64,000 bases of DNA from Minisyncoccota bacterium (GTDB lineage: Bacteria; Patescibacteriota; Minisyncoccia; Phycocordibacterales; SBAW01): positions 119,254 through 183,253 of the forward strand of contig DASZWN010000001.1 in NCBI GenBank assembly GCA_035546575.1, in the 5' to 3' direction. Shown in pieces: positions 4,719-19,997 of the stretch (position 1 is its first letter; every line of letters starts with the position of its first letter). The notes under the pieces were generated by a model. It was not told where the DNA came from. It saw nothing but the letters and a program-made list of their open reading frames with translations, and did no database searches. A program made the position numbers and the translations under genes.

Positions 4719-4742
4719 CCTACCCAAAAATGGTATAGTTGC

Positions 4743-6481: not shown

Positions 6482-6487
6482 AAACAT

Positions 6488-6814: not shown

Positions 6815-6818
6815 AAGC

Positions 6819-7808
6819 ATGCATCGCTTATCACTCAAGCAAAAAACGATATTCTTGTGGGGCATTGAGTTGGCTATGGCTGTTGCTTTGGTGCTGGCAA
6901 TTACAGCTCCTCGTGCATACGTACCCAACGCTCATGCGCAGGCCGCAACTAACGCGGGTACTCTTACAGGATATGCATGGAGCGAGAACGTAGGCTGGCT
7001 CAGTTTCAGCGGCAGCAACTATGGCGTTACTGTTTCTCCGACCGATGGCAACACTCTCACAGGATATGCATGGAGCGAGAACGTAGGCTGGGTCAGTTTT
7101 ACGTCGAGCGATTTATCGGGTTGTCCCTCAGGCGCATGCTCCGCACGACTTACCGGCACAAAACCAAATGTCTCTTTGGCGGGTTGGGCGCGCGCATGCG
7201 CAAGTACCGACAGCGGCGCATGTAGTGGGGCACAACATGTCGGTGGGTGGGATGGATGGATAAGCCTAAGTGGCACCTCTCCCAACTATAGTCCGACGAT
7301 TTCAACATACGCACCTAAGCCGGGGGCTGGCGGGATATTGGAAGGCTATGCGTGGGGGAGTACCGTAATGGGATGGTTGCAATTTAACCCAGCCTTCGGG
7401 GGAGTAACCGTTGCACTCACCGCATGCAACGACGGACTCGACGAAGATGGTGACGGCAATCCTGACCTAACCGACCCAGATTGTGTCGATCTCACTACCG
7501 ACTCTGAGGGTTCTACAGCAGTTGGTGCAGTAGATATCAAAGTAAACGGGAGCGATAGCCTTTCGGTGCGCAGTGGTTCCAGTGTGTCTGTGACTTGGAC
7601 GAGCGCTCTAGTTGGAGGATGTACGCTGCAGTCGCCATCCGGCACAAACTCAGTTGCTGCCCAAAACACTACAGGTACTCCATTTACCATAGCTGCTATC
7701 ACCAAGTTTGCGCTCACATGTACTACGCTTGTCGGCGGTAATCCGACGGGCCCTGCAATAAGCGACTCGGTCACGGTGCGACTTATTCCGGTATACAAAG
7801 AAATTTAG
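6819..7808 (+). CDS. Secreted/surface repeat protein; two LTGYAWSENVGW(L/V)SF repeats, Cys-rich middle, shared C-terminal domain ending IPVYKEI
   Basis: Signal-anchor N-terminus. Tandem repeats. The C-terminal ~90 aa align with the C-terminus of 15723..19997 (..VTW..C.L....G....T.FT..CT......IPV[YF][KQ]EI). Confidence 0.7.
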   Translation: MHRLSLKQKTIFLWGIELAMAVALVLAITAPRAYVPNAHAQAATNAGTLTGYAWSENVGWLSFSGSNYGVTVSPTDGNTLTGYAWSENVGWVSFTSSDLSGCPSGACSARLTGTKPNVSLAGWARACASTDSGACSGAQHVGGWDGWISLSGTSPNYSPTISTYAPKPGAGGILEGYAWGSTVMGWLQFNPAFGGVTVALTACNDGLDEDGDGNPDLTDPDCVDLTTDSEGSTAVGAVDIKVNGSDSLSVRSGSSVSVTWTSALVGGCTLQSPSGTNSVAAQNTTGTPFTIAAITKFALTCTTLVGGNPTGPAISDSVTVRLIPVYKEI

Positions 7809-7826
7809 CCCTATAATTGTAAGCAT

Positions 7827-8888
7827 ATGCAAAGTGTCAAAACAAAAGTAGCTGAGCTGACCCGCTTCGCCAAGGCGTTCCTTTTAGCGGCACTGGTGCT
7901 GCTTGCCGCAGGTGCCTATGCCTGGACTGCGCCAACGCAAGCGCCACCTGCTGGCAACGTACAACCGCCTATCAACGCAGGCGGCTCATATCAAACAATC
8001 GGGATTCTTGCCAACGGCACGACTACCGCCATTACCGGCGGTCTCTTATCGAGCGATGTGTTTGTGGTGGGCTCACCTACACCAAGCTCTGCGCCGCATG
8101 GCTCTATTTGTCTTTCCGGGTCGTGCATTACGAGCTGGAATCAGGCGGCTGGAGGCACCGACTATCAAGTTTTTACGTCGAGCGGTACTTGGACAAAGCC
8201 TGCCGATACGAGCGCATCGTCGCGTACGCTTATCGAGTGCTGGGGCGCAGGCGGGGGAGGCAGCAATAACGGAGGCGGGGGAGGCGGTGCATACGATGCC
8301 GTATGGTCCCTTACCTCTTCACTTAGCTCGACCATTGCGGTAACCGTAGCTACAGCGCCGGCTACGTCGGTGGCGGGGGGCGACTCCTCTTTCGGTTCGC
8401 TCGTTATTGCCAAGGGGGGAGGCGCCGGCGGCGCTGGCGGAGGCGGAGGAGGCGGAGGATACAGCGCAACGGGGAGTAACGGCACTTCTGCTGGGGGAGA
8501 CGGCGGTAATCCGAAGGGTAGTTGGATCTACCCGGGGGTAATTCCTTACTGTCGAGGAGGTACAAGCAGCAAGGGGGCCACCGGCGGTTCCGCATGCGGC
8601 GGAGGTGGCGGCAACGCCAATACGGAAGGCTACGATAAGGGCGGTTATTCCGTCACCGGAGGGGGCGGCGGTGCCGGTAATCACAATGATTCCAACCCTG
8701 CTAACGGTGGCGACTCTGTGTATGGCGGCGGCGGCGGGTCGGCAGGATCTTCCGGGGGTACTGGCGGCCAAAGCATGTTCGGCGGCAATGGCGGGGCTAC
8801 GGGCAGTGCCGGAATTGCCCCCGGCGGCGGCGGCGGGCGCAACGCGCAAGGTGCTCGCGGTGAGTGCCGCGTGACTACGTTTAAATAA
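7827..8888 (+). CDS. Secreted glycine-rich protein carrying a TWTKP...LIECWGAGGGG module
   Basis: Signal anchor. The module FTSSGTWTKPAD...TLIECWGAGGGGSNNGGGGGGAY recurs at residues ~1000-1050 of 15723..19997. Long Gly/Ser/Thr/Asn-rich tail. Confidence 0.7.
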   Translation: MQSVKTKVAELTRFAKAFLLAALVLLAAGAYAWTAPTQAPPAGNVQPPINAGGSYQTIGILANGTTTAITGGLLSSDVFVVGSPTPSSAPHGSICLSGSCITSWNQAAGGTDYQVFTSSGTWTKPADTSASSRTLIECWGAGGGGSNNGGGGGGAYDAVWSLTSSLSSTIAVTVATAPATSVAGGDSSFGSLVIAKGGGAGGAGGGGGGGGYSATGSNGTSAGGDGGNPKGSWIYPGVIPYCRGGTSSKGATGGSACGGGGGNANTEGYDKGGYSVTGGGGGAGNHNDSNPANGGDSVYGGGGGSAGSSGGTGGQSMFGGNGGATGSAGIAPGGGGGRNAQGARGECRVTTFK

Positions 8889-8890
8889 TT

Positions 8891-9220
8891 TTAAAGCGCA
8901 GAGGCTTTCTCGCGCCCTATCTGGGGCAGCAAGTGTAAGTGCGTATGTGGTACGTCTTTTCCGACTATGCCCACCTGTACGTATCCTATATTCGGCCTCT
9001 TTTTCATCTCGCGCGCTAGCTTTTTTGCGATGCGGAATACATGGTCCGACACTTCGTCTGACATTTCCTCAAACCATGTAGAGTGCTCTTTCGGTATAAG
9101 GAGCGTATGACCGGGCACTTTTGGGTTTTTGTCTATAAACGCCAGCACTTTATCATCCTCATATATCTTTTCTGCCGGAATCTGACCCGCAATTATTTTG
9201 CAAAAAATACAGTCATCCAT
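8891..9220 (-). CDS. HIT-family (histidine triad) nucleotide hydrolase
   Basis: C-x-F-C at the N-terminus and the HTHLHLLP histidine triad. Confidence 0.85.
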   Translation of the reverse strand: MDDCIFCKIIAGQIPAEKIYEDDKVLAFIDKNPKVPGHTLLIPKEHSTWFEEMSDEVSDHVFRIAKKLAREMKKRPNIGYVQVGIVGKDVPHTHLHLLPQIGREKASAL

Positions 9221-9243
9221 CCCTTTAGTATATACTTGCTTGG

Positions 9244-10899
9244 ATGAAATCGTACAGAATCCGCGAACGCCAGGACGAAAATCTGCTTTCTGATTTGCTG
9301 TTGGCGCGTGGAGTAGAGGGCGAGGAGGCGCAGAAGCAGTTCTTGGTACCCGACTTTGAGCGCGACTCGGGCGACCCGATGCTATTGCCAGACATGGAAA
9401 AAGCAGTGGATCGTATTTTGTCTGCTGTAAAAAATAACGAGCCTGTGTGCGTGTGGAGCGACTACGACTGCGACGGTATCCCCGGTGGCGTGATGCTCAC
9501 TGAGTTTTTGCGAGGCATAGGGCTCACGGTGCGCCATTATATCCCGCATCGGCATACGGAAGGGTACGGATTGAACGAAGAGGGGATTGAAGAACTGTTT
9601 CAGCAGGGCATCAAGCTCATCATCACCATTGACCTGGGCACCACAGAGATAGAGCAGATCGCATATGCAAATACAAAAGGAGTTGATGTAATCGTGACCG
9701 ACCACCACGTAGTGCAGCACGACTTGCCGGATGCGTTTGCGCTTTTAAACCCTAAACGCCCCGACAGCAAATATGGGTTCGACGGCTTGTGTGGTGCAGG
9801 TGTCGCCTGGAAGTTGATACAAGGCATCCTTAGCAAAAACCGTTTTGGTTTGAAGGAAGGGCAGGAAAAGTGGCTGCTCGATTTTGTCGGTATTGCGACG
9901 CTCTCCGACATGGTGCCCTTGGTGGGAGAAAACCGGATGCTCGCGCACTTTGGCTTGCGCGTCATGCGCCGCGACCGCCGGCCGGGAATCTCCGCCCTCT
10001 TAAAAATGCTGCGCATTAAGCCCGCAAGCCTTACCGAAGACGATATCGGTTTTATGATCTCTCCGCGCATTAATGCCGCATCGCGCATGGACAAGCCCGA
10101 CACTGCTGCGCGGTTGCTTGCTACAAGCGACACAGTTGAGGCTGCTGAGATTGCGGAGGAGTTGAATCACATTAATGATGAGCGTAAAGGAGTTGTTGCT
10201 GCAATAGTAAAAGAGGCAAACAAACGCATGGCCGACACTCCTATTGATGGACCAGTTATTGTAATGGGCAACCCTAAGTGGCGCCCAGGCGTACTTGGGC
10301 TTGTTGCAAACAAGTTGATGGAGGATCACAACAAGCCGGTATTTTTGTGGGGACGCGAGGGCGGCGACGTTATAAAAGGCTCGTGTCGCAGTGACGGCAG
10401 CGTGAGCGTTGTCGACCTGATGGCTGCGACAGGAGATGTGTTTCTCGGGTTTGGCGGACATACCGCCTCAGGTGGATTTTCTGTAGACGCTGGAAACGTG
10501 CACGAGCTATTGCCGCGGCTTACTCAGGCATACGAGATCCTTAAAGCAAAGGCATCAGTGCAGCAAGATGTTGTAATCGATCGCCAGGCAGATGTTGCAG
10601 AAATCCCGCACGCGCACCGCGACCTTCTGAAGCTCGCTCCGTTTGGCATAGGCAATCCAAAGCCGTTATTTATGTTCCCGGGGGTGTCTATAGGCAACAC
10701 CAAAATGTTTGGCAAAACCGAGAACCATCTCGACATGAGCTTACAGAAAGATGGCGCTAGGATCTCGGGCATCGCGTTTTTCTCGACACGCGACTCGTTT
10801 ACTAAACCTGTCGCTACTGGCGAACGCGCCGACATCGTGGGTCATATAGAGAGCGACTGGCGCGGCAACTCCCGTATCCGAGTAGTTGATATACTGTAA
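9244..10899 (+). CDS. recJ: Single-stranded-DNA-specific exonuclease RecJ (DHH family)
   Basis: DYDCDG, VTDHHV (DHH) and GGHTASGG (GGGH-like) motifs; typical length. Confidence 0.85.
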   Translation: MKSYRIRERQDENLLSDLLLARGVEGEEAQKQFLVPDFERDSGDPMLLPDMEKAVDRILSAVKNNEPVCVWSDYDCDGIPGGVMLTEFLRGIGLTVRHYIPHRHTEGYGLNEEGIEELFQQGIKLIITIDLGTTEIEQIAYANTKGVDVIVTDHHVVQHDLPDAFALLNPKRPDSKYGFDGLCGAGVAWKLIQGILSKNRFGLKEGQEKWLLDFVGIATLSDMVPLVGENRMLAHFGLRVMRRDRRPGISALLKMLRIKPASLTEDDIGFMISPRINAASRMDKPDTAARLLATSDTVEAAEIAEELNHINDERKGVVAAIVKEANKRMADTPIDGPVIVMGNPKWRPGVLGLVANKLMEDHNKPVFLWGREGGDVIKGSCRSDGSVSVVDLMAATGDVFLGFGGHTASGGFSVDAGNVHELLPRLTQAYEILKAKASVQQDVVIDRQADVAEIPHAHRDLLKLAPFGIGNPKPLFMFPGVSIGNTKMFGKTENHLDMSLQKDGARISGIAFFSTRDSFTKPVATGERADIVGHIESDWRGNSRIRVVDIL

Positions 10900-10903
10900 T
10901 CTC

Positions 10904-11329
10904 ATGCAAAAGATCACGATTCATACCGATGGAGGAGCGAGGGGGAATCCGGGTCCGGCAGGCATTGGTGCTGTTGTCACAGACGAGAGGGGTACGGTGA
11001 TACGCGAGGTTTCCAAATACATCGGCGAGCAGACAAATAACTTTGCCGAGTACGAGGCACTTATTGTCGTCCTGAATGAGCTAAAGAAAATGTTTGGCGA
11101 AAAGCTGCGCGAGATGCAGTTGGAAGTAAAAATGGACTCCGAGCTCGTGGTGCGCCAGCTCTCCGGCATCTACAAAGTAAAAGAGCCAACGCTCAAAGAG
11201 CAATTTGCAAAGGTAGCCAAAATCCGCCTCGAAGACGCCCCCAACATGACCTTTACTCATGTCTTCCGCGAGGCAAACGCCCACGCCGACAAGCTGGTAA
11301 ACAAAGCCATAGACGCGAGCCTGAAATAA
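10904..11329 (+). CDS. rnhA: Ribonuclease HI
   Basis: TDGGARGNPGPAG, NNFAEYEAL, DSELVVRQ, REANAHADKL motifs. Start taken at the ATG of MQKITIH. Confidence 0.8.
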   Translation: MQKITIHTDGGARGNPGPAGIGAVVTDERGTVIREVSKYIGEQTNNFAEYEALIVVLNELKKMFGEKLREMQLEVKMDSELVVRQLSGIYKVKEPTLKEQFAKVAKIRLEDAPNMTFTHVFREANAHADKLVNKAIDASLK

Positions 11330-11344
11330 CGCTAAGGTACTGGC

Positions 11345-12676
11345 GTGAAATATTGGAGCATCTTTGGCCTCCTGGTGTTTGCATACGCGGCGCTTTTATT
11401 TGCTCGCGTTGTTTTTACGCTCAATGCCGAGGCTGCGGAGACTTTGCCTCTGTACGACGGACACACGGGTGCAGTGGTGGGGAGGGTAGTTAACGACCCT
11501 GACCGACGCGCTACTTCGCTCCATGTACATGTGAGGGTGGCGACAGTTGATGGCGAGCCCGCACGCGGTACGCTGCTTGCGCTTTTGCCGCCACAAGCAG
11601 AAGTTTCGTACGGCGACACCGTTGAGGTGTCGGGGACAATCAAAACACCAGAGCCGTTTGAGACCGACACGGGCCGCGAGTTTAACTACGCAGGCTATCT
11701 GCGCGTGCAAGGGGTCTCAATGATGATGCAAAAAGCTACGCTACAAAATGTAGAAGAGGGAGGACTATCTTTGCAAAAAACTCTTTTTAGCATCAAACAC
11801 ACGTTTGAACACTCGCTCGAGAAATTATTCCCCGAGCCGGACAACTCGCTGCTTGAGGGGATTCTGCTCGGCGAGCGCTCGGGGCTCCCGAAAGATGTAC
11901 AGAATGCGTTTATCGCATCGAGCTTGGTGCACGTGGTGGTGCTCTCCGGCTACAATATATCGATTGTTGCCAACGCGGTGCTCTACGCCACCTCGGGTTT
12001 GCCGCGCACATTCTCCTACGGCTTTGGCGGAATGCTCATGATCTTGTTTGCCATGATGACTGGTGCAGGTGCCACTACGGTGCGTGCATGCGCCATGGGA
12101 GTTATCTCTATTGTTGCGCAGTACATGCACCGGCCAACGGTCGCGATGCGCAGCCTTATCGCAGCGGCGGGTGCGATGATACTCTGGAACCCGCTTATTG
12201 TGCTCTACGACTCCTCTTTTATATTGAGTGTGCTCGCGACATTTGGACTCGTGACACTGTCACCGACGACCGAGCGGTGGGTAAGGTGGATCCCAGAGAA
12301 GTTTGGCCTACGGTCAATTGCCGCAGCAACAATCGCAGTGCAACTGTTTGTGCTGCCAGCACTTTTGTATTTTACCGGCGTACTTTCTGTTGTTGCACTG
12401 CCTGCAAATTTACTCGCGCTCCCTGTTGTGTCTTGGGCAATGTTGTTTGGTTTTATTGCGGGGCTTCTTGGATTTGTACATCCTGCACTCGCACTACCGT
12501 TCGCGATCCTCGGTGACGCGCTCCTTAGGTGGATGATGCTTGTAGCAAACACAGCAACCGCGTTCCCGTTCTCCTCGACAGTAGTGGCGGCTTTTCCTGC
12601 TTGGATACTTATAGCGATGTATATTCCGCTAACGACTATTGCCACTAAGATTTACCTTACACAAAGTAACTCATAA
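11345..12676 (+). CDS. comEC: ComEC/Rec2 DNA internalisation channel, N-terminal DUF4131-like plus competence domain only (no MBL domain)
   Basis: LLGERSGLPKDVQNAFIASSLVHVVVLSGYNISIV core and multiple TM segments. The protein ends before an MBL domain. Confidence 0.8.
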   Translation: MKYWSIFGLLVFAYAALLFARVVFTLNAEAAETLPLYDGHTGAVVGRVVNDPDRRATSLHVHVRVATVDGEPARGTLLALLPPQAEVSYGDTVEVSGTIKTPEPFETDTGREFNYAGYLRVQGVSMMMQKATLQNVEEGGLSLQKTLFSIKHTFEHSLEKLFPEPDNSLLEGILLGERSGLPKDVQNAFIASSLVHVVVLSGYNISIVANAVLYATSGLPRTFSYGFGGMLMILFAMMTGAGATTVRACAMGVISIVAQYMHRPTVAMRSLIAAAGAMILWNPLIVLYDSSFILSVLATFGLVTLSPTTERWVRWIPEKFGLRSIAAATIAVQLFVLPALLYFTGVLSVVALPANLLALPVVSWAMLFGFIAGLLGFVHPALALPFAILGDALLRWMMLVANTATAFPFSSTVVAAFPAWILIAMYIPLTTIATKIYLTQSNS

Positions 12677-12739
12677 AAAAGTCCTTAGCCCCATTTCGCT
12701 TCGCGAAACGGCACGCCCCCACCTAGACTTTTTTCTGAG

Positions 12740-13333
12740 CTACTTTGTCACGGCTTCAAACCGCTTCTCGATAACAGACCAATTAAGATTTTTGAAAAAC
12801 GCGTCTATATATTTGCCGCGGCCGGTGGCACCTTGGTCAAGTATGTATGCGTGCTCCCACACGTCGATGGCAAGCATAATAGGGAGCGTCACAAAGTGGC
12901 CCTGATGCTGCTCGCCCGAGAAGCCAGCAATAAATTGTTTTGTCTCAGGGTCCCAGTACAAAATCGCCCAACCCGGCCCGCGTGTTGACGCGATGCTCTT
13001 GAGATACGGCTCAATGTGCGCAGCCTTCATATAATCTTTTGTGAGCGCTGCCTCGAATGCACCGCCGCTTGTAATCGGCGTAGCGCCACCCTCGAGCTGC
13101 TCAAAGTAATACTCGTGCAAGCGCATACCGTCCCACTCAAACGCGCGGCGGCGGAATATCTCGGCGAGCGCGTGGGCGTTCTTCTCGGCCTCCTTGGCGT
13201 ACTCCGGCATCAAGGCCGACATCGCATTAAAGTTTTTTACATAGCCTGCATAGAGGGCGAGGTGCTGGTCTATAGATTCCTTAGAGATACCCTCTAGAGC
13301 GGGGATAGTAAACTGTTTTTCTTGGTATTGCAT
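12740..13333 (-). CDS. sodA: Fe/Mn superoxide dismutase
   Basis: DVWEHAYILD metal-binding motif and N-terminal FTIPALEG. The ORF-track GTG start at 13366 is also possible. Confidence 0.85.
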   Translation of the reverse strand: MQYQEKQFTIPALEGISKESIDQHLALYAGYVKNFNAMSALMPEYAKEAEKNAHALAEIFRRRAFEWDGMRLHEYYFEQLEGGATPITSGGAFEAALTKDYMKAAHIEPYLKSIASTRGPGWAILYWDPETKQFIAGFSGEQHQGHFVTLPIMLAIDVWEHAYILDQGATGRGKYIDAFFKNLNWSVIEKRFEAVTK

Positions 13334-13471
13334 GTGTTCAGTAAAACATCTTAATTCTAAAGACACCCTAAAGATATCCCCATAAGGGTTGCAAAAAGTA
13401 CTATTTGTGGCATAGTTCTGTGTAGTTAGTCCTTAGCCGCAATCTGCGGCGTTTCAAAACGGGGGAACCCA

Positions 13472-13780: not shown

Positions 13781-13799
13781 CAATCCCAGATTTTCTGGG

Positions 13800-13836
13800 C
13801 AAGAAGGCGCGATGCGAATCGCGCCTTCTTTCTTTT
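13800..13836 (+). terminator. Intrinsic terminator (agaaggcgcga/tcgcgccttct 11-bp stem + T-run)
   Basis: Perfect 11-bp stem, 6-nt loop, TTTCTTTTT. Confidence 0.65.
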
Positions 13837-13837
13837 T

Positions 13838-14743
13838 ATGTATACTTTGCGCATGCAGTTTTTGCGCCGATACTTTTCTTACCTTATCCTTGCTGCTCTG
13901 GTTTTAATTTCAATCGGCATCTGGTCAGTTGTTTGGGCCGAGACTGCGCCCGGCAAACTCATTGTTGCGGTGCTCGACGTCGGCCAAGGCGACTCCATTT
14001 TTATAGAGTCTCCAACCGGAGTGCAGATTATTATCGATGGCGGCCCCGACAACTCTCTTTTGCACGACCTGCCGCATGTGATGCCGCTCTCTGACCGCTC
14101 TATCGACGCGGTGCTCGCAACGCACCTCGACGCTGACCACATCACCGGCTTTATTGACCTGCTCAAGCGCTACTCAGTTGGCGCGTTTATTGAATCAGGT
14201 TTAGTTAAGAGTACACTCACTGCGCGCACATTAGAAAAAGAAGTTGATGCGGAAAAAATCCCCCGCACGATCGCACGCCGGGGCATGTCGCTTGACCTCG
14301 GCGGGGGAGCGTATCTTGATGTCTTGTCTCCTGACTACGATGTCTCCATCTTGCCAGAGGACAAAGGCAACGAGGGGTGCATTGTCGCACATTTGGTCTA
14401 CGGCAAAACCTCGATGCTTTTAATGTGCGACGCATCTATGGATGTTGAGGATCATATTATGGCACTTGGGAGCCTGCCTACCGGACAGGCAGGCACAACG
14501 CAGATCAAAAGCGATATTTTAAAAGTCGGACACCATGGTTCGCACTCTTCGACGGGAGATGAATTTGTGAGCGAGGTTGACCCGTCGGTTGCCATTATCT
14601 CGGTTGGCGCACACAACACGTACGGTCACCCGGCTGAGCAGACACTCGACACCCTCGCAGCTCATAATGTAGAAACCCTCCGTACAGACGAGGAGGGGAC
14701 TATCAAGTTTATTTCGAACGGGGAGAAGTTTGTGAGGGATTAG
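13838..14743 (+). CDS. ComEC C-terminal metallo-beta-lactamase domain protein, encoded as a separate gene
   Basis: VLDVGQGDS, THLDADHITG, VGHHGSHSS, NTYGHP motifs and an N-terminal TM. Palindrome copy 3 lies in-frame at 14472-14494 and encodes LPTGQAGT. Confidence 0.8.
   Translation: MYTLRMQFLRRYFSYLILAALVLISIGIWSVVWAETAPGKLIVAVLDVGQGDSIFIESPTGVQIIIDGGPDNSLLHDLPHVMPLSDRSIDAVLATHLDADHITGFIDLLKRYSVGAFIESGLVKSTLTARTLEKEVDAEKIPRTIARRGMSLDLGGGAYLDVLSPDYDVSILPEDKGNEGCIVAHLVYGKTSMLLMCDASMDVEDHIMALGSLPTGQAGTTQIKSDILKVGHHGSHSSTGDEFVSEVDPSVAIISVGAHNTYGHPAEQTLDTLAAHNVETLRTDEEGTIKFISNGEKFVRD
14472..14494. repeat. Palindromic element copy 3 (gcctgcct-accggac-aggcaggc), inside the comEC-MBL CDS
   Basis: Same CCTGCC...GGCAGG core as 1252, 2472 and 32532. 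Confidence 0.6.
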
Positions 14744-14982
14744 ATAACCCCGGCTGCCTTGAGAGTCTTGTACGCGCCGTTTTTTGTAACGGTGCGCATA
14801 CCTTTTGTCGAGAGAGTAACGGTAACGGTGCGATTAAGTTCTGGTACAAAGATGCGCTTCTTCTGCATATTCGGTTGTTTCCGAACTATACCAGTGGGGT
14901 TGAACTTGGTTGCGCGGATGCGGTTAGAATAGCCGCCTGCGACCTTGGACCCCTTTTTTGTTACCGGGCAGATTTTAGCCAT
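14740..14982 (-). CDS. rpmB: 50S ribosomal protein L28
   Basis: MAKICPVTKKGSKV..NRIRATKFNPTG.. is typical of bL28. Confidence 0.85.
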   Translation of the reverse strand: MAKICPVTKKGSKVAGGYSNRIRATKFNPTGIVRKQPNMQKKRIFVPELNRTVTVTLSTKGMRTVTKNGAYKTLKAAGVI

Positions 14983-15022
14983 ACGTTTTAGTGCTCAAGC
15001 ATGATATCATCATTCTACAAAT

Positions 15023-15670
15023 ATGCCAACTGAGCTTGTTTTCGGCCTCCTGGTGCTCATTTTCTCGGTTATTTTGCACGAGGTGGCCCACGGCTATATG
15101 GCCAATTGGCTAGGCGATCCGACAGCGCGTCTTGCTGGTCGGCTAACGCTCAATCCAATCTCGCATATCGACCCGATAGGTTCGGTTATCTTGCCGGGTC
15201 TACTCCTCATCACGCAGCCGCTCACGGGCTTTCCGTTTTTGATCGGCTATGCCAAGCCGGTGCCCTATAATCCGTATAACCTGCATGGTAAGTACGACGA
15301 GGCGCTTGTTGCCGGCGCCGGCCCGGCAACCAATATCTTACTCGCTCTTATTTTTGGTCTGCTTATCCGCTTTGGAGGAGCGGGGATCGACATCTCAGTA
15401 CTGAGCGCGTTTGCTACGATCGCTTACATCAATATGCTGCTCGCACTCTTCAACCTCATTCCCATCCCGCCCCTGGACGGCTCCAAAGTGCTTTCGGGTA
15501 TTTTGCCTCGAGGTTTGGCGCACTCATATGACCTCTTCCGTTCCAACTTTGAGCGGCTCGGCGTGCTCCAGGGGACTCTCCTTATAATGATCGTTTTCTA
15601 CTTTTTATCGCCGTTTTTTACCGCACTTCTGAGATTTTGCTTTGGCGTGCTCACTGGCGTGACAATATAA
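15023..15670 (+). CDS. Site-2 protease family (M50) membrane metalloprotease
   Basis: HEVAHG (HExxH) zinc site, NLIPIPPLDGSKVL motif and multiple TM helices. Confidence 0.75.
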   Translation: MPTELVFGLLVLIFSVILHEVAHGYMANWLGDPTARLAGRLTLNPISHIDPIGSVILPGLLLITQPLTGFPFLIGYAKPVPYNPYNLHGKYDEALVAGAGPATNILLALIFGLLIRFGGAGIDISVLSAFATIAYINMLLALFNLIPIPPLDGSKVLSGILPRGLAHSYDLFRSNFERLGVLQGTLLIMIVFYFLSPFFTALLRFCFGVLTGVTI

Positions 15671-15722
15671 TGTGTGTTGATAACCCTTCGTTCTAAAAAG
15701 GCCGCAGCACCCTATACTTACG

Positions 15723-18700
15723 TTGATGTCTCACGAATTCCTGCCGAGGATTTCTTTCAACAGACTTACACTACTAGCTAAGCTCACCGGAGGTGTTGCG
15801 GCGCTGGTTATGTTTGCCGTTGTCTTTAGCGGACGCATACCGATTAGCGGAGGGCTTGGAGCGGCGACCGCTACGTTCGCCGACGGCTCTGTGCTTACTC
15901 TCACTGCGGCAGACTCCTCTGTTACATCGGGGAATTCGACTAAACTTTCTTGGAACGCAAATTTACTCCCATCCTGTTTCGGCAGCGATACGACCGGTTG
16001 CGGCAAAGCAAATGCATCTATTGCAAGCATACTTCCGGTACAAGTATTTACTATTGGAACAGACCCCACACCGTATCTTTTGGCGCAGAACGGGATATAT
16101 AAATGGATCACGTCCGGCCCCACCGGAGCGCCATGCTTTGGCAAGGATACCTCAAGCTCGTGCGGAACAGTATTCCAATCAATTCCTCCATTAACCAATG
16201 GCCAGCAGGGAATAATGGCATTTACAGCGAGCAACGGCACTACCTACCTTGCGACGGTGGAAGTATATGCTTCTCCTCGCCTCTACAAATGGCTTCCGAC
16301 GCAAAATAGCGGAAACGGATGCTTCGGCAATGGCACTACCTGCATGAGTTCTGCGGCCGCATCCATGTTTCAGAATAACTTTCCTACAGGACCGTATTCT
16401 GAAGGAGGATTTGATTGGGAATATGCATATATAGGAGGCAATGACTACGTAATGCTCACGGTAGGAAATGCGGTGTATGTATACAAATGGATAGCAGGTA
16501 CCAAGAACTGCTTCGGAGACGGAACAAACTGCGCGACACCGGCAGTCCAATTCCAAACTATTGCGCCGCCATCTCCTCAAAGTTTCTACATGAGAGCTTT
16601 CTCTATAGGAACTGGTGCGTATCTTATTGTCGCCGACAGTACTACCTCTACCGGAGGGAACTCCGTCGTCTACCGGTGGAACCCGACCGCCAACAGTAGC
16701 AAGGGCTGCTTCGGGAGTACCTCGAGTTCCAATTGTGGTACGGCCTTCCAAAGCGGATTGTCCCGCGGGGCGTCTGCCTCGACAGCGGTGTCGGTGACCA
16801 CGCTTGGAAGCGATCAAAATCCTTACCTATTTCTCGCCCCTGGCGTAGGAGGTGTAGGAGGTTCTGATAATGCGGGGCTCATATATAAATGGAATCCCTC
16901 TGGTAATAGTAGTAATGGCTGTTTCGGTACTGGCTCGGGAACTGCCTGCGGTACAAGCAGCGGTAATTTCTTCCAGAAACTGCCTCTAGCTAACTGGCAA
17001 ATGACGGCAACTACCACACCAATCGGCACATTTTTGGTAACTATGGTTAACAGCTATGACGCAACTCCGGGGAACGTATATAAGTGGAACCCGACCGGCA
17101 ATGGCGGCTTAGGTTGTTTCGGTAATGGAACTGCTTGCGAATCCGCAACGACCAAAACCAATGTATGGCAGACGCCGTTTGATTATATAGCTGCGCCAAC
17201 TACCTACGCCCTCCTTTCGGGGAATACTTATATCGTTACGCCGTATTCCGCAACTCAAGGCGGCACGTACGGAGCGGGCATCTTTAAACCTCGATATCCG
17301 ACCTGTTCGGTAACATGGAGTAATGCAGGAGGTTCAGGGACGATTGGATCTGGAGTCGTCGGTGTAAACGTAGATACCCCGCCTATAACCCAAAACACCA
17401 CCTACACGCTCAACTGTGTTGGCGTGGGCAGCGTACAAGTTCAGGTAACTATCGCGGCAGCTGCGGTTACTCCTATTGTCTCTGTCTCCACGATTGCATC
17501 TCCCGCAACCGAGTCCGGCACACCGGGAACATTGCGCATCACTCGGGCTGCCGGTACCACCGCATCCAAAACAGTATTTTTAGATTCTGCCTCTGGTTGG
17601 ACACAACGACCGTCAGCCGGCAACCGTAGCTGGTCGAGCATCACCTCTTCTTCCGACGGCACCAAGCTTGCGGCGGTGGTAGGGCTCGATTCAGCCGGCT
17701 ACATCTATACCTCGACCGACTCCGGCGCTACGTGGACGGAGCGTACCGGCGCGGGAAGTCATAAGTGGGGAAGCATCGCATCGTCCGCCGACGGCACTAA
17801 GCTCGTGGCGGTAGTAGGTGGACCGGGAGAAGGACAATCTGAATTAGGCTACATCTATACCTCGACCGACTCCGGCGCCACGTGGACCCAGCGCACTGGC
17901 TCCGGCAGCCGCGATTGGATCTCCGTTACCTCTTCTAGCAATGGAACTAAGCTTGCGGCTGCAGTATTCGGCGGCTACATCTATACCTCGACCGATTCCG
18001 GCGCTACGTGGACGCAACGTGCAAGCAGCCGTCTGTGGAGTTCAATCACTTCCTCTGCCGACGATGGCACCAAGCTCGCCGCAGCGGTACAAAGCGGCTA
18101 CATCTATACCTCGACCGATTCCGGCGCTACGTGGACGGAGCGCACGACTGCAGGCAATCGTTATTGGAATTCCATCACCTCTTCTTCCGACGGCACCAAG
18201 CTTGCGGCGGGAGTGTACCCTCAAAGCCCAGACGAATCCATCTACCGCTCTTCGGATAGCGGTGCCACCTGGGCTCCTGATCCTAGCGTCGGTTCGCATG
18301 ATTGGCAGTCAGTCACCTCCTCTTCCGACGGTACTAAACTTGCTGCAGTTACTGAATCAGATACGGAAGGAGGCGGTTATTCTTACACAGGTAGTTTTCC
18401 TGTGAATCAGTGGACGGTACCTTCCGATTGGAACAGCAGTAATAATAAAATTGAGGTTATTGGTGGCGGAGGAGGCGCTGCTTCGACTGGCGGTGGCGGT
18501 GCAGGAGGCGGATACTCAAAATCATTAAATGTCTCTCTTACACCCGGCGCCTCTCTTGCTTATAGCGTTGGTTCGGGCGGTGCGGGAGGAGGTCCAGGGG
18601 GCACTTACCCATCCTGTGTCCTCGGTGCAGTCGGGGGCAATACATACATATGTAATTCGACCGGCAGTTGCACTTCCTTGTCGGATAGCGGAGTTTTGGT

Positions 18701-19997
18701 AGGTGCCCAAGGCGGCGGCGGCGGATCGTTCGGTGCCCCGAGCACTAACGCTGTAGGCGGCGATGCGGCTAATGGGAAGGGCAATTCCAGCAAATATTCG
18801 GGAGGGAACGGCGGATACGGATATGGAGGGACTTCGGGCGGCGGTGGCGGCGCTGCCGGTCCTGCCGGTAAAGGGGGCGCAGGCGGTCCTGCTTTTGGAG
18901 GGACTGCAGTATCAGGTGCTGGCGGTGGTGGCAATGGCGGCGGCACAGACGGTACAAAGGGCGCGGGAGTAACTACCGGCGGGGCGGGTGGAAATAATGC
19001 GAATGGTACCGGCGGAGGGACAGCGGGCAATCCCGGTAATCCTGGTTCCAGCGGCGGCGGAGGCGGTGGTGCCGGAGGAGGAAACAGTAATCCCAATGTT
19101 GCCGGCGGAGCAGGAGGCGGAGGGATTGAATGGGATTCTTCTCACGGTTCGGGCGGCGGCGGCGGCGCTGGCGCACGGAAGAATAGCTCTATGTCCAATG
19201 GAGGAAACGGCGGACTGTATGGCGGCGGCGGCGGTGCCGGAGGAGCGGATGCCGGCACCGGTGCCTGCGGCACAGGCGGCAATGGAGCTCCAGGCATTAT
19301 CGTCATTACCTATACGCCTGCCGGCGGCACGCTTGATACCTCTGCAGCTCTTCCTGTTACGTTTTCGCTCGCGACGGGTGGTAATAACGCGATTCGCAAC
19401 AGCGACTACACGCTGTCGGGCGCAAGTATTGCAAATCCTTCCGGAAATACACTCACTATTCCGGCAGGACAAGCGTCTGTCGACGTGACAATAACTCCCG
19501 TCCAGGATCTTCTTTATGAAGGCAATGAGCCGGTCACTATGACTATCCAACCGCCTGGCGACTCCAGCTATACCGTCGGTTCTCCGAACAGCGATACTGT
19601 CACCATCGTGGATCAGCAGGGTCCGACATCGTTACCAAATTCTTCAGGAGGGCTCACCTCATGTGTAGGCGTCGCAAGCGCGTCATGCAATCTCGGAGTT
19701 ACGCCGCAGCGTGTCCGCAGCGGAAGCTCCGTAACGGTTACGTGGTACGTGTCTGGTCTCATTACCGGAGCCAACGGGAACGGAAGCGACTCGTGCGTTA
19801 TTACTAAAACTCCTGATGACTCAGTCTTTCCTCAGAGTTGGAATCAATCCGGCAGTACCTGGATAAACGGCGGGGGTGTTTCGTCAGTCATCACTCAAAA
19901 CAGCGTATTCACGCTTACCTGTACCGCCCCTGACGGGATTACTAAAACCAGCACTTCGCAGTTGATCAGCATCATACCGGTTTTCCAAGAGATATAA
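15723..19997 (+). CDS. Giant secreted/surface protein, 1424 aa. Order: seven Cys-containing YKW-P..GCFG..C..FQ repeats, six BNR/Asp-box repeats (TDSGATWT), a Gly-rich TWTVP...VIGGGGG module, a Calx-beta-like domain, then the shared C-terminal domain ending IPVFQEI
   Basis: Signal anchor. Repeats visible in the translation: SxDxGxTW six times, consistent with a beta-propeller. Gly-rich region of about 300 aa. C-terminal ~90 aa homologous to the C-terminus of 6819..7808. Confidence 0.8.
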   Translation: MMSHEFLPRISFNRLTLLAKLTGGVAALVMFAVVFSGRIPISGGLGAATATFADGSVLTLTAADSSVTSGNSTKLSWNANLLPSCFGSDTTGCGKANASIASILPVQVFTIGTDPTPYLLAQNGIYKWITSGPTGAPCFGKDTSSSCGTVFQSIPPLTNGQQGIMAFTASNGTTYLATVEVYASPRLYKWLPTQNSGNGCFGNGTTCMSSAAASMFQNNFPTGPYSEGGFDWEYAYIGGNDYVMLTVGNAVYVYKWIAGTKNCFGDGTNCATPAVQFQTIAPPSPQSFYMRAFSIGTGAYLIVADSTTSTGGNSVVYRWNPTANSSKGCFGSTSSSNCGTAFQSGLSRGASASTAVSVTTLGSDQNPYLFLAPGVGGVGGSDNAGLIYKWNPSGNSSNGCFGTGSGTACGTSSGNFFQKLPLANWQMTATTTPIGTFLVTMVNSYDATPGNVYKWNPTGNGGLGCFGNGTACESATTKTNVWQTPFDYIAAPTTYALLSGNTYIVTPYSATQGGTYGAGIFKPRYPTCSVTWSNAGGSGTIGSGVVGVNVDTPPITQNTTYTLNCVGVGSVQVQVTIAAAAVTPIVSVSTIASPATESGTPGTLRITRAAGTTASKTVFLDSASGWTQRPSAGNRSWSSITSSSDGTKLAAVVGLDSAGYIYTSTDSGATWTERTGAGSHKWGSIASSADGTKLVAVVGGPGEGQSELGYIYTSTDSGATWTQRTGSGSRDWISVTSSSNGTKLAAAVFGGYIYTSTDSGATWTQRASSRLWSSITSSADDGTKLAAAVQSGYIYTSTDSGATWTERTTAGNRYWNSITSSSDGTKLAAGVYPQSPDESIYRSSDSGATWAPDPSVGSHDWQSVTSSSDGTKLAAVTESDTEGGGYSYTGSFPVNQWTVPSDWNSSNNKIEVIGGGGGAASTGGGGAGGGYSKSLNVSLTPGASLAYSVGSGGAGGGPGGTYPSCVLGAVGGNTYICNSTGSCTSLSDSGVLVGAQGGGGGSFGAPSTNAVGGDAANGKGNSSKYSGGNGGYGYGGTSGGGGGAAGPAGKGGAGGPAFGGTAVSGAGGGGNGGGTDGTKGAGVTTGGAGGNNANGTGGGTAGNPGNPGSSGGGGGGAGGGNSNPNVAGGAGGGGIEWDSSHGSGGGGGAGARKNSSMSNGGNGGLYGGGGGAGGADAGTGACGTGGNGAPGIIVITYTPAGGTLDTSAALPVTFSLATGGNNAIRNSDYTLSGASIANPSGNTLTIPAGQASVDVTITPVQDLLYEGNEPVTMTIQPPGDSSYTVGSPNSDTVTIVDQQGPTSLPNSSGGLTSCVGVASASCNLGVTPQRVRSGSSVTVTWYVSGLITGANGNGSDSCVITKTPDDSVFPQSWNQSGSTWINGGGVSSVITQNSVFTLTCTAPDGITKTSTSQLISIIPVFQEI

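What the first reader, a model, noticed from the sequence alone, without database searches (positions are those of the whole stretch)
6819..19997. Family of secreted surface proteins built from shared modules, including a novel C-terminal domain ending IPV[YF][KQ]EI and a TWTxP...GGGGG glycine-rich module
Three genes share pieces: 6819-7808 (329 aa), 7827-8888 (353 aa) and 15723-19997 (1424 aa). The C-terminal ~90 aa of the first and third align and both end ...IPVYKEI or ...IPVFQEI, a possible sorting, anchoring or donor-strand signal. The Gly-rich module (F/S..(T/Q)WT(K/V)P(A/S)D...(L/I)(I/E)(E/V)(C/I)(W/G)GAGGGG...GGGG) occurs in the second and third. The giant protein additionally has seven Cys-bearing repeats (YKW.P...GCFG..C...FQ), six Asp-box/BNR repeats (TDSGATWT, propeller-like) and a Calx-beta-like domain. 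Together with the nearby GspE/PilB-like ATPase and ComEC, this suggests an uncharacterised surface-adhesion or pilus-associated system.
Basis: seen in the sequence. Interest (0 to 1): 0.6.

Follow-up and report, generated by a model that had tools for sequence, protein, structure and literature searches.

The report
CPR surface-fibre cassette with C-terminal tail
Three secreted surface proteins of an uncultured ultrasmall (CPR/Paceibacterota) bacterium are built mostly from known binding modules, but two of them end in a previously undescribed, strictly C-terminal six-residue tail, and two belong to a conserved gene cassette encoding phage-tail-fibre-like proteins with swappable tips that may be how these bacteria grip their hosts.

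Summary
ORFs 6819-7808 (P1), 7827-8888 (P2) and 15726-19997 (P3) exist and share the stated pieces.

The novelty claims need correcting:
- The Gly-rich "TWTxP...GGGG" module is the known TNF-like plus glycine-rich receptor-binding domain (Pfam PF21722). Its fold matches phage Bxb1 and Pam3 tail-fibre tips and ALK.
- The "C-terminal domain" is a generic Ig-like repeat (19,100 cluster representatives, up to 47 copies per protein).

What is distinctive is the terminal hexapeptide P-x-[FY]-x-E-x-COOH. It ends 61 of 120 P1 homologs against 7 internal matches in 43,908 residues. It ends 44 ORFs in 80 CPR loci against 0-2 at control offsets. It follows unrelated domains, always on proteins with N-terminal signals.

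Comparative genomics shows the real unit is a CPR-specific cassette:
- a small membrane protein (6488-6814);
- P1, with four novel "GYAWSxNxGW" β-hairpin repeats;
- one to eight P2-like fibres sharing a conserved N-terminal module, with interchangeable tips (Gly_rich_2, collagen, Peptidase_S74, Gp38).

In 11 of 80 loci the cassette abuts pilB-pilC-pilin genes. No sorting enzyme co-occurs.

Best reading: a surface adhesion and fibre system whose tail is an envelope-docking signal. The mechanism is inferred, not shown.

The parts
6488..6814 (+). Small single-pass membrane protein (108 aa). It has a TM segment near residues 7-27 and a charged helical C-terminal part with repeated 'QDLLQL/QDLLKI' motifs. 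It is the first gene of the cassette and its stop codon ends 4 nt before the P1 start.
   Evidence: Translation. An equivalent 90-150 aa TM ORF with repeated 'EEKxxILxxLS' lies directly upstream of the GYAW gene in 19 of 80 loci and in the syntenic MAG L081. No Pfam hit. Weak PHROG Rz-like spanin resemblance, E 0.006.
6819..7808 (+). P1, 329 aa: a secreted GYAW-repeat protein (NCBI VHD31_00730, 'hypothetical').
   Evidence: 100% identical to P0001. More than 3,315 homologs, nearly all Patescibacteria. AF2 model has mean pLDDT 87.2.
6957..7385 (+). Four aromatic β-hairpin repeats 'G-Y-A-W-S-x-N-x-G-W-[IV]-x-F' (P1 residues about 47-189).
7416..7523 (+). Acidic Cys-bracketed linker 'CNDGLDEDGDGNPDLTDPDC', similar to calcium-binding, thrombospondin-type-3-like motifs (P1 residues about 200-235).
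   Evidence: NCBIfam NF033662 acidic double-disulfide repeat, E 2.7e-6, below cutoff. Weak teneurin-4 match in PDB.
7527..7784 (+). Ig-like β-sandwich with a conserved Trp and a Cys pair (P1 residues about 237-322).
7785..7805 (+). C-terminal tail I-P-V-Y-K-E-I-COOH (general form [ILV]-P-x-[FY]-x-E-x).
7827..8888 (+). P2, 353 aa: a tail-fibre-like protein (VHD31_00735). It has a Sec-type signal (residues 1-32, ...GAYA|WTAPT), a conserved N-terminal module WTxPTxxPPxxNVxxPINxG...Q (about 33-62), a low-confidence stalk, and a TNF-like plus Gly-rich tip.
   Evidence: Translation. The N-module is shared by 71-76 neighbour genes in 46-51 of 80 loci. AF2 mean pLDDT is 79.6, with residues from about 110 to 353 mostly above 90 (blocks 231-260 lower, 51-72).
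8154..8885 (+). Gly_rich_2 (TNF-like β-sandwich plus polyglycine lattice) domain of P2. It runs from ...SGTWTKP... to the family-typical ending ...APGGGGGRNAQGARGECRVTTFK.
   Evidence: PF21722 at E 1.5e-3. 249 homologs, many with a precomputed PF21722 hit and the same ending. Foldseek matches: Bxb1 tail tip 9d93 at E 8.6e-6, Pam3 fibre 7ypx at E 1.6e-4, ALK/LTK at about 1e-2. PHROG 863, tail category, at 9.3e-8.
15726..19997 (+). P3, 1423 aa: a giant multidomain adhesin-like protein (VHD31_00785, HVV38844.1). It has an N-terminal hydrophobic anchor or signal at residues about 14-36.
15927..17285 (+). Seven two-Cys 'YKW...CFG..C...FQ' repeats, read as an EPTP/EAR-like seven-bladed propeller.
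   Evidence: Pfam EPTP PF03736 at 31.3 bits against a cutoff of 21, E 2.1e-7, on one blade. Seven CFG anchors 53-71 aa apart.
17559..18365 (+). Six Asp-box (BNR) blades, read as a Sortilin-Vps10/sialidase-type propeller.
   Evidence: Sortilin-Vps10 at 3.1e-9, BNR_6 at 2.1e-7 and BNR at 2.6e-6 on the fragment. Blade list.
18372..19310 (+). Internal Gly_rich_2 domain of P3 (...QWTVPSDW...IEVIGGGGG...GAPGIIVITYTP), 39% Gly.
   Evidence: PF21722 at 24.7 bits against a cutoff of 24.3. hhalign to the P2 family at E 1.9e-4. Composition.
19311..19640 (+). Calx-beta-like domain.
   Evidence: PF03160 at 18 bits, below the cutoff of 27. Homologs of this segment carry PF03160.
19677..19973 (+). Ig-like β-sandwich homologous to the one in P1.
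   Evidence: BLASTP E 4e-4. Fits alignment A4. P0121 has Calx-beta plus this domain plus the tail at 40% identity over 93% of the query.
19974..19994 (+). C-terminal tail I-P-V-F-Q-E-I-COOH.
1294..2973 (+). PilB/GspE-type ATPase. It is context only: 3.5 kb upstream of the cassette, with tpiA and pgk in between.
   Evidence: T2SSE at 1.3e-70 and MshEN at 5.3e-12. In other genomes pilB directly abuts the cassette.

Best explanation
These are cell-surface adhesion and fibre proteins of a Paceibacterota (CPR) bacterium.

Shown:
- P2 is a secreted protein whose tip is the TNF-like plus glycine-rich receptor-binding domain used by phage tail fibres.
- P2 belongs to a CPR family that keeps one conserved N-terminal module and swaps tips: Gly_rich_2, collagen, Peptidase_S74 chaperone and Gp38.
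- P1 belongs to a very large CPR family with four novel GYAW β-hairpin repeats, an Ig-like domain and a strictly C-terminal P-x-[FY]-x-E-x tail.
- A small membrane protein gene, a P1-type gene and one to eight P2-type genes form a conserved co-directional cassette, sometimes abutting type IV pilus operons.
- P3 is an independent giant protein that strings two β-propellers, a Gly_rich_2 domain and a Calx-beta domain onto the same Ig-plus-tail ending.

Inferred:
- The P2-type proteins are trimeric fibres whose common N-module docks them onto a shared base, most plausibly the P1 protein, while the variable tips bind ligands on host or partner cells.
- The tail is a short docking or retention peptide. 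It holds otherwise freely secreted proteins (P1, P3 and others) to a common envelope receptor. Candidates are the small membrane protein, the cell wall or the pilus. Binding would be non-covalent, by β-strand addition or carboxylate and Glu recognition, rather than through a sortase-type reaction.
For: Module identities:
- Pfam and PHROG hits.
- AF2 plus Foldseek matches to Bxb1 tail tip, Pam3 fibre and ALK.
- The published role of this domain as a fibre receptor-binding tip (PMC9608196).

Fibre nature of the P2 family: 9 members carry Peptidase_S74, 4 carry collagen triple helix and 1 carries Gp38.

Cassette:
- A P2-like family occurs in 51 of 80 loci by clustering and 46 of 80 by motif.
- 28 of 76 GYAW genes have a directly adjacent same-strand P2-like gene, and tandem arrays reach 7.
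- A small TM ORF lies upstream in 19 loci.
- The triad is conserved in the syntenic MAG L081.

Tail:
- 61 of 120 homologs have the strict tail and 78 of 120 the loose form, against 7 internal matches in 43,908 residues. Glu(-2) is present in 78 of 78 and Pro(-6) in 72 of 78.
- 44 ORF ends carry it against 0-2 at offset controls. 12 of these lack GYAW repeats, and those with an intact N-terminus begin with a hydrophobic segment.
- It follows Ig-type, Cys-rich and other β-domains.
- It occurs at only 25 internal sites in about 229,000 residues of multi-repeat proteins, so it is not the generic inter-repeat linker.
- 57 of 76 GYAW genes in the loci keep it, most of the rest end in degenerate variants, and none ends in a membrane anchor.

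Other support:
- Cleavable signal peptides are evident in homologs, for example ...VQA|Q and ...ISNA|Q, so some retention mechanism is needed.
- Larger family members carry lectin-like or propeller binding modules: Laminin_G_3, Kelch, LVIVD, PKD, CARDB and BNR.
- Pilus adjacency in 11 of 80 loci.
Against: - No experiment or complex prediction links P1, P2, the small protein or the tail. The docking partners are conjecture.
- The AF2 model gives the tail as non-regular but fairly confident (last block pLDDT 89). That is also compatible with a purely intramolecular role.
- Only 28 of 76 GYAW genes have a directly adjacent P2-like gene, and 29 to 34 loci (by clustering or by motif) show none within 10 kb.
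- NusA, EF-Tu, trigger factor and ClpP are as frequent neighbours as pilB. Part of every neighbourhood signal is therefore inherited synteny among related small genomes.
- The correlation of the tail with the small TM gene is weak and not phylogeny-corrected (18/19 against 39/57, p=0.03).
- Signal-peptide cleavage was judged by eye, not by a predictor.
- Trimerisation of P2 is inferred from family members, not from P2 itself.
Confidence: 0.55

Rival explanations
1. The tail is purely structural. It would be a cap or vestigial first strand of a lost following Ig repeat that packs back on the last domain, with no sorting or docking role. The shared pieces would simply reflect domain shuffling among unrelated adhesins.
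For: - The preceding β-sandwich is a generic tandem repeat.
- Matches of internal copies often extend to the conserved Pro at profile position 88.
- A few internal junctions look like the tail and continue into the next domain's A-strand, for example P0291 ...EVFPPPFIEFELSAN... and P0323 ...VRVPVFVETPLL....
- The AF2 pLDDT of the last block is 89.
Against: - Only 25 internal occurrences in about 229,000 residues of proteins with hundreds of repeat junctions.
- The tail follows unrelated domain types, including Cys-rich ones.
- Glu is invariant at exactly -2 from the carboxyl end and Pro is nearly invariant at -6.
- The tail is retained across families that otherwise share nothing with P3.
Confidence: 0.2
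2. The tail is a covalent sorting or processing signal read by a dedicated enzyme, following the sortase, exosortase or rhombosortase logic or that of a C-terminal processing peptidase. This is what the first reader proposed.
For: - The motif is strictly C-terminal.
- It occurs on many architectures, all with N-terminal export signals.
- Several tail-bearing paralogs can cluster in one locus (L050, L075, L039).
Against: - All known signals of this logic are tripartite (motif, hydrophobic helix, basic cluster). Here the protein ends one residue after the Glu.
- The last residue is variable: F, I, L, T, R or Q.
- Unbiased clustering of 1,338 neighbour genes in 80 loci found no recurrent peptidase or transpeptidase.
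- No sortase TLxTC motif lies in a real ORF of the window.
- No NCBIfam CTERM model hits.
- An enzyme encoded elsewhere in the genome cannot be excluded.
Confidence: 0.13
3. The tail is a donor strand. Tail-bearing subunits would polymerise head-to-tail, or insert into pilus or fibre subunits, by strand complementation, making a non-type-IV pilus-like filament.
For: - The tail has β-strand-like alternation (Φ-x-Φ-x-E-Φ) directly after the last strand of an Ig fold.
- The cassette is adjacent to pilus genes in some genomes.
Against: - The Ig domains of P1 and P3 appear complete in the model, with no missing strand or open groove reported.
- The tail is only about 6 residues, short for a donor strand.
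- It also follows non-Ig domains.
- The CppA match is generic for the Ig fold.
Confidence: 0.08
4. P1 and P2 are a prophage or tailocin remnant, that is, phage tail-fibre genes sitting in the chromosome, not a cellular system.
For: P2's tip matches phage tail-tip and tail-fibre structures and a PHROG tail family. Family members carry S74 and Gp38 domains.
Against: - The neighbours are housekeeping genes, with no capsid, portal, terminase or integrase.
- P1 has no match in 50,697 phage genomes, in PHROGs or in 2.9 million IMG/VR contigs.
- A WTGPT...PINVG DNA pattern finds 7 sites in 1.2 Mb of CPR loci and none in IMG/VR.
- The cassette sits in conserved chromosomal synteny across many lineages.
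Confidence: 0.03

Closest known systems
Phage tail-fibre and tail-tip receptor-binding proteins with a TNF-like plus glycine-rich domain (cyanophage Pam3 gp24, PDB 7YPX; mycobacteriophage Bxb1 tail tip, 9D93; S16 gp38), and the ALK/LTK extracellular TG domain. This is Pfam PF21722 Gly_rich_2.
   Same: - The P2 tip and the internal P3 module match PF21722.
- The P2 AF2 model matches these structures.
- P2 shares the family's characteristic start (F-T-x-S-G-T-W-T-K-P) and end (APGGGGGRNAxGARGE[CV]RV..F).
- P2-family members also use the S74 chaperone, collagen and Gp38 modules typical of fibres.
   Different: - These are chromosomal, Sec-secreted cellular proteins with a CPR-specific N-terminal module in place of a baseplate-attachment helix.
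- No fibre-assembly chaperone gene follows P2.
- In P3 the domain is internal in a 1,423-aa protein, not at the tip.
- TM-scores to the solved structures are low (0.29-0.44).
C-terminal protein-sorting signals of monoderm and diderm bacteria and archaea (LPXTG/sortase, PEP-CTERM/exosortase, GlyGly-CTERM/rhombosortase, PGF-CTERM/archaeosortase).
   Same: A short conserved motif at the C-terminal end of many otherwise unrelated secreted, adhesin-like proteins within one lineage. Several substrates occur per genome.
   Different: There is no hydrophobic helix or basic cluster after the motif. No partner enzyme was found in the neighbourhood. The motif sits at the very carboxyl end.
Repeat-based cell-wall anchoring modules of Gram-positive surface proteins (choline or cell-wall-binding repeats PF01473, GW modules). 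This is an analogy from general knowledge, not tested.
   Same: The P1 GYAW units are about 30-45-aa aromatic-rich β-hairpin repeats in a secreted protein that lacks a membrane anchor.
   Different: There is no sequence or fold match to any of them. A binding specificity for wall polymers is conjecture.
Giant modular adhesins with Ig-like tandem repeats, β-propellers and Calx-beta domains (for example RTX/LapA-type or Bap-type adhesins, and SorCS/Sortilin-Vps10 and EPTP propellers in eukaryotes).
   Same: P3 combines a seven-repeat EPTP-like propeller, a six-blade BNR propeller, Calx-beta and Ig-like domains.
   Different: It has no RTX or type I secretion signal, no LPXTG and no T9SS CTD. Its ending is the CPR tail. 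The domain order, with an internal Gly_rich_2, is unusual.
Type IV pilus-associated adhesins and minor-pilin tip complexes.
   Same: The cassette is adjacent to pilB-pilC-pilin operons in 11 of 80 loci. Type IV pili are the known host-attachment organelles in cultivated Patescibacteria (titles and abstracts).
   Different: P1, P2 and P3 lack the class III (G|FTLIE) prepilin signal. In this window the cassette is separated from pilB by glycolytic genes.

Membership tests
Pfam PF21722 Gly_rich_2 (TNF-like plus glycine-rich domain) | HMM score at or above the gathering threshold (24.3 bits) | tested here: met
   P3 fragment: 24.7 bits, E 2.8e-5. P2 fragment alone: 19.1 bits, below the cutoff. However, dozens of P2's 249 homologs carry a precomputed PF21722 hit, and 5 P2-like neighbours score up to E 7.1e-30.
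Pfam PF21722 Gly_rich_2 (TNF-like plus glycine-rich domain) | Fold: β-sandwich interwoven with a lattice of extended Gly-rich loops, as in Pam3 gp24 and the ALK GRD | tested here: met
   The AF2 model of P2 has residues from about 110 to 353 mostly at pLDDT above 90, with a lower stretch around 231-260. Foldseek gives probability 1.00 to 9d93_Qa (E 8.6e-6) and 7ypx_A (E 1.6e-4), then ALK/LTK at about 1e-2. TM-scores are low (0.29-0.44), so this counts as supportive rather than decisive.
Pfam PF21722 Gly_rich_2 (TNF-like plus glycine-rich domain) | Function as the receptor-binding tip of a trimeric fibre | not testable with these tools
   Inferred from PMC9608196 and from S74 and collagen modules in sister proteins.
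Sortase-, exosortase-, rhombosortase- or archaeosortase-type C-terminal sorting signal | Tripartite signal: signature motif, then a hydrophobic transmembrane helix, then a basic cluster | tested here: not met
   P1 and P3 end one residue after the invariant Glu. This holds across 78 of 120 homologs.
Sortase-, exosortase-, rhombosortase- or archaeosortase-type C-terminal sorting signal | Dedicated processing enzyme that co-occurs or is co-located with the substrates | tested here: inconclusive
   No recurrent peptidase or transpeptidase appears among 1,338 neighbour genes of 80 loci. There is no sortase motif in real ORFs of the window. Whole genomes could not be profiled.
EPTP/EAR seven-bladed β-propeller (Pfam PF03736) | HMM hit above the gathering score, and seven tandem repeats | tested here: met
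   31.3 bits against a cutoff of 21 on residues 275-320. Seven CFG-anchored repeats. The propeller fold itself was not modelled.
BNR/Asp-box β-propeller (Sortilin-Vps10/sialidase type) | Repeated S-x-D-x-G-x-T-W Asp-boxes spaced about 40-50 aa apart, and a family HMM hit | tested here: met
   Five canonical Asp-boxes and one degenerate. Sortilin-Vps10 at 36.6 bits against a cutoff of 33, and BNR_6 at 30.8 against 27, on the fragment.
Calx-beta (Pfam PF03160) | HMM score at or above the gathering threshold (27 bits) | tested here: inconclusive
   18 bits, E 0.0029. Database homologs of the same segment are annotated PF03160.
Type IV pilins or pseudopilins | Class III signal peptide with G|[FM]T[LI][IL]E and an N-terminal hydrophobic helix retained in the mature protein | tested here: not met
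   The regex finds no pilin-type signal anywhere in the window. P2-type proteins have A-x-A|W Sec-type sites instead.
Type IV pilus gene cluster (accessory component) | Conserved co-location with pilB, pilC and pilin genes | tested here: inconclusive
   Directly adjacent and co-directional in 11 of 80 loci. In the window and in L081, pilB is 3.5 kb away with tpiA and pgk between. Housekeeping genes are equally frequent neighbours.
Prophage or tailocin tail-fibre module | Neighbouring phage structural or integration genes, and relatives in phage genomes | tested here: not met

The most novel reading that the evidence does not exclude
P-x-[FY]-x-E-x-COOH is a new class of C-terminal surface-retention signal specific to Patescibacteria. 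The cassette (small membrane protein, GYAW protein and interchangeable tail-fibre-like proteins) is a previously unrecognised, partly pilus-associated host-recognition apparatus. In it, a common base displays fibres with swappable receptor-binding tips, a cellular counterpart of a phage baseplate-and-fibre system that determines which hosts an episymbiont can attach to.
Probability: 0.2. Interest if true: 0.8.

Novelty: new variant of a known kind. Interest (0 to 1): 0.5.

Why it matters
How ultrasmall CPR/Patescibacteria recognise and hold on to their hosts is largely unknown beyond type IV pili. This locus suggests three concrete things to test:
- A conserved gene cassette encoding fibres with exchangeable, phage-like receptor-binding tips. 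This is a plausible determinant of host range.
- A very large, uncharacterised protein family with a new β-hairpin repeat (more than 3,000 hits).
- A simple, searchable C-terminal peptide that may mark the surface-displayed proteome of these organisms.

If the tail is a retention signal, it gives a one-line rule for predicting CPR surface proteins and a handle for tagging or displaying proteins on them.

Tried and rejected
- BLASTP of P2 against P3 found no Gly-rich match because of composition adjustment. The relationship had to be shown through Pfam on fragments and hhalign.
- Whole-protein Pfam and NCBIfam scans missed Gly_rich_2 entirely.
- PDB sequence searches with P1, P2 and the P3 Gly module gave nothing useful.
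- Searching homologs of the P3 C-terminal 235 aa returned only six proteins, one informative.
- Phage origin was rejected: no P1 match in INPHARED phages, in PHROGs or in IMG/VR. The P2 N-module pattern was absent from IMG/VR, with a positive control in the CPR loci.
- A2 was too divergent for the search for related loci.
- Literature searches for CPR sorting signals, CPR tail fibres and the literal motif strings found nothing relevant.
- T9SS CTD, LPXTG, PEP-CTERM and outer-membrane β-signal readings were considered and dropped. There is no model hit, no TM or basic segment, and these organisms have a monoderm-type envelope (the last point from general knowledge).
- ComEC, RecJ, RNase H, SOD, MBL and M50 were treated as possible system members and rejected as housekeeping genes in conserved synteny.
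- The correlation of the tail with an adjacent P2-like gene was not significant (p=0.41).

Full report
**Source and context.** ORF 6819-7808 is 100% identical to a hypothetical protein (VHD31_00730) of a Candidatus Paceibacterota MAG, on a 287-kb contig. P2 and P3 are VHD31_00735 and VHD31_00785, and the small upstream ORF is VHD31_00725. All four are annotated "hypothetical". The surrounding genes are ordinary housekeeping genes:
- pilB-type ATPase (1294-2973), tpiA, pgk, HIT, recJ and RNase H;
- comEC, sodA, an MBL hydrolase and an M50 protease;
- rpsL, rpsG, a phosphoglucomutase and fusA.

Ribosomal and translation genes follow further on. There are no phage genes.

**Checking the observation.** The three ORFs and their translations are as described.

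The P1 and P3 C-termini align at 35% identity over 100 columns, E=4e-4. Both fit a 33-sequence alignment with invariant Trp, two Cys, Pro(-6) and Glu(-2). The IPV[YF]xEI ending occurs only twice in all six frames of the window.

The Gly-rich similarity is invisible to composition-adjusted BLASTP. It is recovered in two ways:
- Both fragments hit Pfam PF21722, P3 at 24.7 bits (cutoff 24.3) and P2 at 19.1 bits.
- A profile of 76 P2 relatives aligns TWTKP...IECWGAGGGG with QWTVP...IEVIGGGGG at E=1.9e-4.

P3 has seven CFG-anchored two-Cys repeats and six Asp-box blades, five of them canonical. One Cys repeat hits Pfam EPTP above threshold. The Asp-box region hits Sortilin-Vps10 and BNR. The Calx-beta call is sub-threshold but is backed by annotated homologs. 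The sequence observation is therefore confirmed.

**The Gly-rich module is a known domain.**
- P2's 249 database relatives come from Proteobacteria and others as well as CPR. They have unrelated, often tail-fibre-like N-termini. Many carry a precomputed PF21722 hit, one is named "glycine-rich domain-containing protein", and almost all share P2's ending ...APGGGGGRNAxGARGE[CV]RV..F.
- An AF2 model of P2 (mean pLDDT 79.6, residues from about 110 to 353 mostly above 90) matches the mycobacteriophage Bxb1 tail tip (E 8.6e-6) and the cyanophage Pam3 fibre 7YPX (E 1.6e-4). The ALK/LTK TNF-like plus Gly-rich domains come next.
- PHROGs places P2 in a "tail" family.
- The Pam3 paper describes exactly this architecture as the receptor-binding tip of a trimeric fibre (PMC9608196).

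This module is therefore not novel.

**The "C-terminal domain" is a generic Ig-like repeat.**
- An exhaustive profile search finds 19,100 cluster representatives, 7,676 of them at E≤1e-10. The best are giant proteins with up to 47 tandem copies, and many end in transmembrane or PEP-CTERM-like anchors.
- The matches normally stop at profile positions 84-89 of 93, before the tail.

**The tail is the distinctive feature.**
- Among the 120 best P1 homologs, 61 end in P-x-[FYW]-x-E-x and 78 in a looser form. There are only 7 internal matches in 43,908 residues. Glu is present at -2 in 78 of 78 and Pro at -6 in 72 of 78.
- In 1.2 Mb from 80 CPR loci, 44 of 2,916 ORFs of at least 80 aa end in the strict motif, against 0-2 at control offsets. 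Twelve of the 44 lack GYAW repeats. They are 106-806 aa long, and those with an intact N-terminus begin with a hydrophobic segment. None has a Pfam domain.
- The tail follows Ig-type, Cys-rich (...KDCPLRIFEI) and other β-domains (...NAGNIEPVYEEI).
- It is rare at internal repeat junctions, 25 in about 229,000 residues.
- P3's only close relative for this region, P0121, keeps Calx-beta plus Ig plus ...ILPVFQEI.
- Of 76 GYAW genes in the loci, 57 keep the tail or a short extension. Most others end in degenerate variants, and none ends in a membrane anchor.

Enrichment has been shown only in P1-centred loci, not genome-wide.

**P1 itself.** After an N-terminal hydrophobic segment come four β-hairpin repeats with the signature G-Y-A-W-S-x-N-x-G-W-[IV]-x-F. 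Many homologs have clear cleavable signal peptides. The repeats have no Pfam, NCBIfam, PDB or viral-structure counterpart. It is essentially confined to Patescibacteria. Larger members insert lectin-like or propeller modules: Laminin_G_3, Kelch, LVIVD, PKD, CARDB and BNR.

**The cassette.** I clustered 1,338 neighbour genes from the 80 loci without prior assumptions. The only non-housekeeping family that recurs is a P2-like family, in 51 loci by clustering and 46 by motif. Its members share a Sec-type signal (...VYA|WTGPT) and a conserved mature N-terminus, WTxPTxxPPxxN[VT]xAPINVGxxxQxKxGxL. They differ completely in their C-terminal parts: nine carry the Peptidase_S74 intramolecular chaperone, five Gly_rich_2 (best E 7e-30), four collagen triple helix, one phage Gp38 adhesin and one a TSP1 domain.

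These genes lie on the same strand as the GYAW gene, often 10-100 bp away, and in arrays of up to seven (L029). 28 of 76 GYAW genes have one directly adjacent.

A third component is a 90-150-aa single-pass membrane protein with repeated helical "EEKxxILxxLS" motifs. It sits immediately upstream of the GYAW gene in 19 loci. In the window this is ORF 6488-6814, whose stop codon ends 4 nt before the P1 start.

The closest related MAG has the identical arrangement: pilB, tpiA, pgk, 116-aa TM protein, 306-aa GYAW protein ending LLPMYREI, P2 homolog, HIT, recJ.

**Pilus link.** Thirteen of the 80 loci contain pilB. In eleven of them the cassette directly abuts, co-directionally, a pilB-pilC-pilin cluster, or the GYAW gene lies among pilin genes. 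There are caveats:
- NusA, EF-Tu, trigger factor and ClpP are equally common neighbours.
- The loci are phylogenetically related.
- None of the three proteins has a prepilin signal.

**Not a prophage.** P1 has no relatives in 50,697 phage genomes, in PHROGs or in IMG/VR. A DNA pattern for the P2 N-module finds seven sites in the CPR loci and none in IMG/VR. Only the tips are shared with phages.

**Mechanism.**

Shown:
- the domain identities;
- the positional specificity of the tail;
- the cassette and its partial association with pilus genes.

Inferred:
- P2-type proteins are trimeric fibres, attached through their common N-module to a shared base and using variable tips to bind ligands.
- P1 is the conserved partner. 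It could act as the base or adaptor, perhaps wall-binding through its aromatic hairpin repeats.
- The tail is a non-covalent docking or retention peptide shared by P1, P3 and other exported proteins.

I put about 0.55 on this overall picture. The main alternatives are:
- the tail is merely structural (0.2);
- it is a covalent sorting or processing signal whose enzyme is encoded elsewhere (0.13);
- it is a donor strand for polymerisation (0.08);
- the cassette is a prophage remnant (0.03).

No partner for the tail was identified.

**Comparison with the known, and novelty.** Gly_rich_2, EPTP, BNR, Calx-beta and the Ig-like repeat are known families, and P3 is a new combination of them. The following appear undescribed:
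- the GYAW repeat family;
- the P2 N-terminal module;
- the three-gene cassette;
- the P-x-[FY]-x-E-x-COOH tail.

They have no curated model, and literature searches, including literal motif strings, found nothing. They fit a known kind of thing, modular surface adhesins with a lineage-specific C-terminal signal. They differ from every known signal of that type in lacking the transmembrane and basic segment and a linked enzyme. I rate this "new variant of a known kind" with interest about 0.5. It gives a concrete, testable candidate for host recognition in CPR bacteria, but the functional claims are inferential.

Noticed in passing
window 51561-53807 (-) and 53985-57239 (-): Two large LCAT-like α/β-hydrolase proteins of 747 and 1083 aa (PF02450 at 8.9e-16 and 6.3e-8). 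The second also carries DUF7305. They lie in the lowest-GC part of the window (0.446-0.471 at 50-54 kb), followed by a GC-skew spike of 0.161 at 54-56 kb. This may be an acquired lipase or acyltransferase island.
   Followed up: no
window 29694-29804 (+): A gathering-level Rfam match to bacterial 23S rRNA positions 1856-2001 (58.8 bits, E 7e-15). It lies inside an unusually long 770-nt spacer between rpsJ (28747-29124) and rplC (29895-30551). It was not reproduced in a region-limited search. Unexplained; it could be an rRNA-mimic leader or a stray fragment.
   Followed up: partly
window 58306-58678 (-): A tmRNA gene with tag peptide AKSVSSPYFSVNDLSLATARA.
   Followed up: yes
window 2974-4742: The 1.77-kb stretch between pilB and tpiA has no ORF with any family hit. 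Only short overlapping ORFs are present. One of them (3648-3914, 88 aa) has a TM segment plus a helical tail reminiscent of the small cassette protein. In other genomes pilC and pilin genes follow pilB directly.
   Followed up: partly
window 15023-20499; L057:2546-7458; L004; L015: The slot between the M50 protease gene and rpsL is variable. It holds P3 here and an apparently unrelated 1256-aa gene (no P3 tblastn hit) in L057. In L004 and L015 M50 and rpsL are only about 270 bp apart. This looks like a hot-spot for inserting giant surface-protein genes.
   Followed up: partly
L024:23-1525 with 1537-2538; L039:10915-12405 with 12417-13274; L050:4500-6060 (approximate) with 6077-6913: A second recurrent pair: a roughly 500-aa N-terminally anchored protein sits directly upstream (11-16 bp) of a short (278-333 aa) tail-bearing protein that lacks GYAW repeats. 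This may be another tail-linked module.
   Followed up: no
P0027, P0069, P0112, P0074 (database proteins): GYAW-type repeats also occur in a few non-CPR proteins, for example from Desulfuromonadales. These have a different, conserved ending...TTVRGLTIxKGTVTxDRIVI[RK], instead of the tail.
   Followed up: no
window 5513-6481; L081:4378-5346: Phosphoglycerate kinase is only 322 aa here and in the related MAG. It matches the 379-position Pfam PGK model in two stretches, which suggests a compact, internally deleted form.
   Followed up: no
window 22631-23221: A 196-aa protein with a PaaX central Cas2-like domain (3.3e-20) lies between the phosphoglucomutase gene and fusA. Homologs recur in 5 of the 80 loci.
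   Followed up: no
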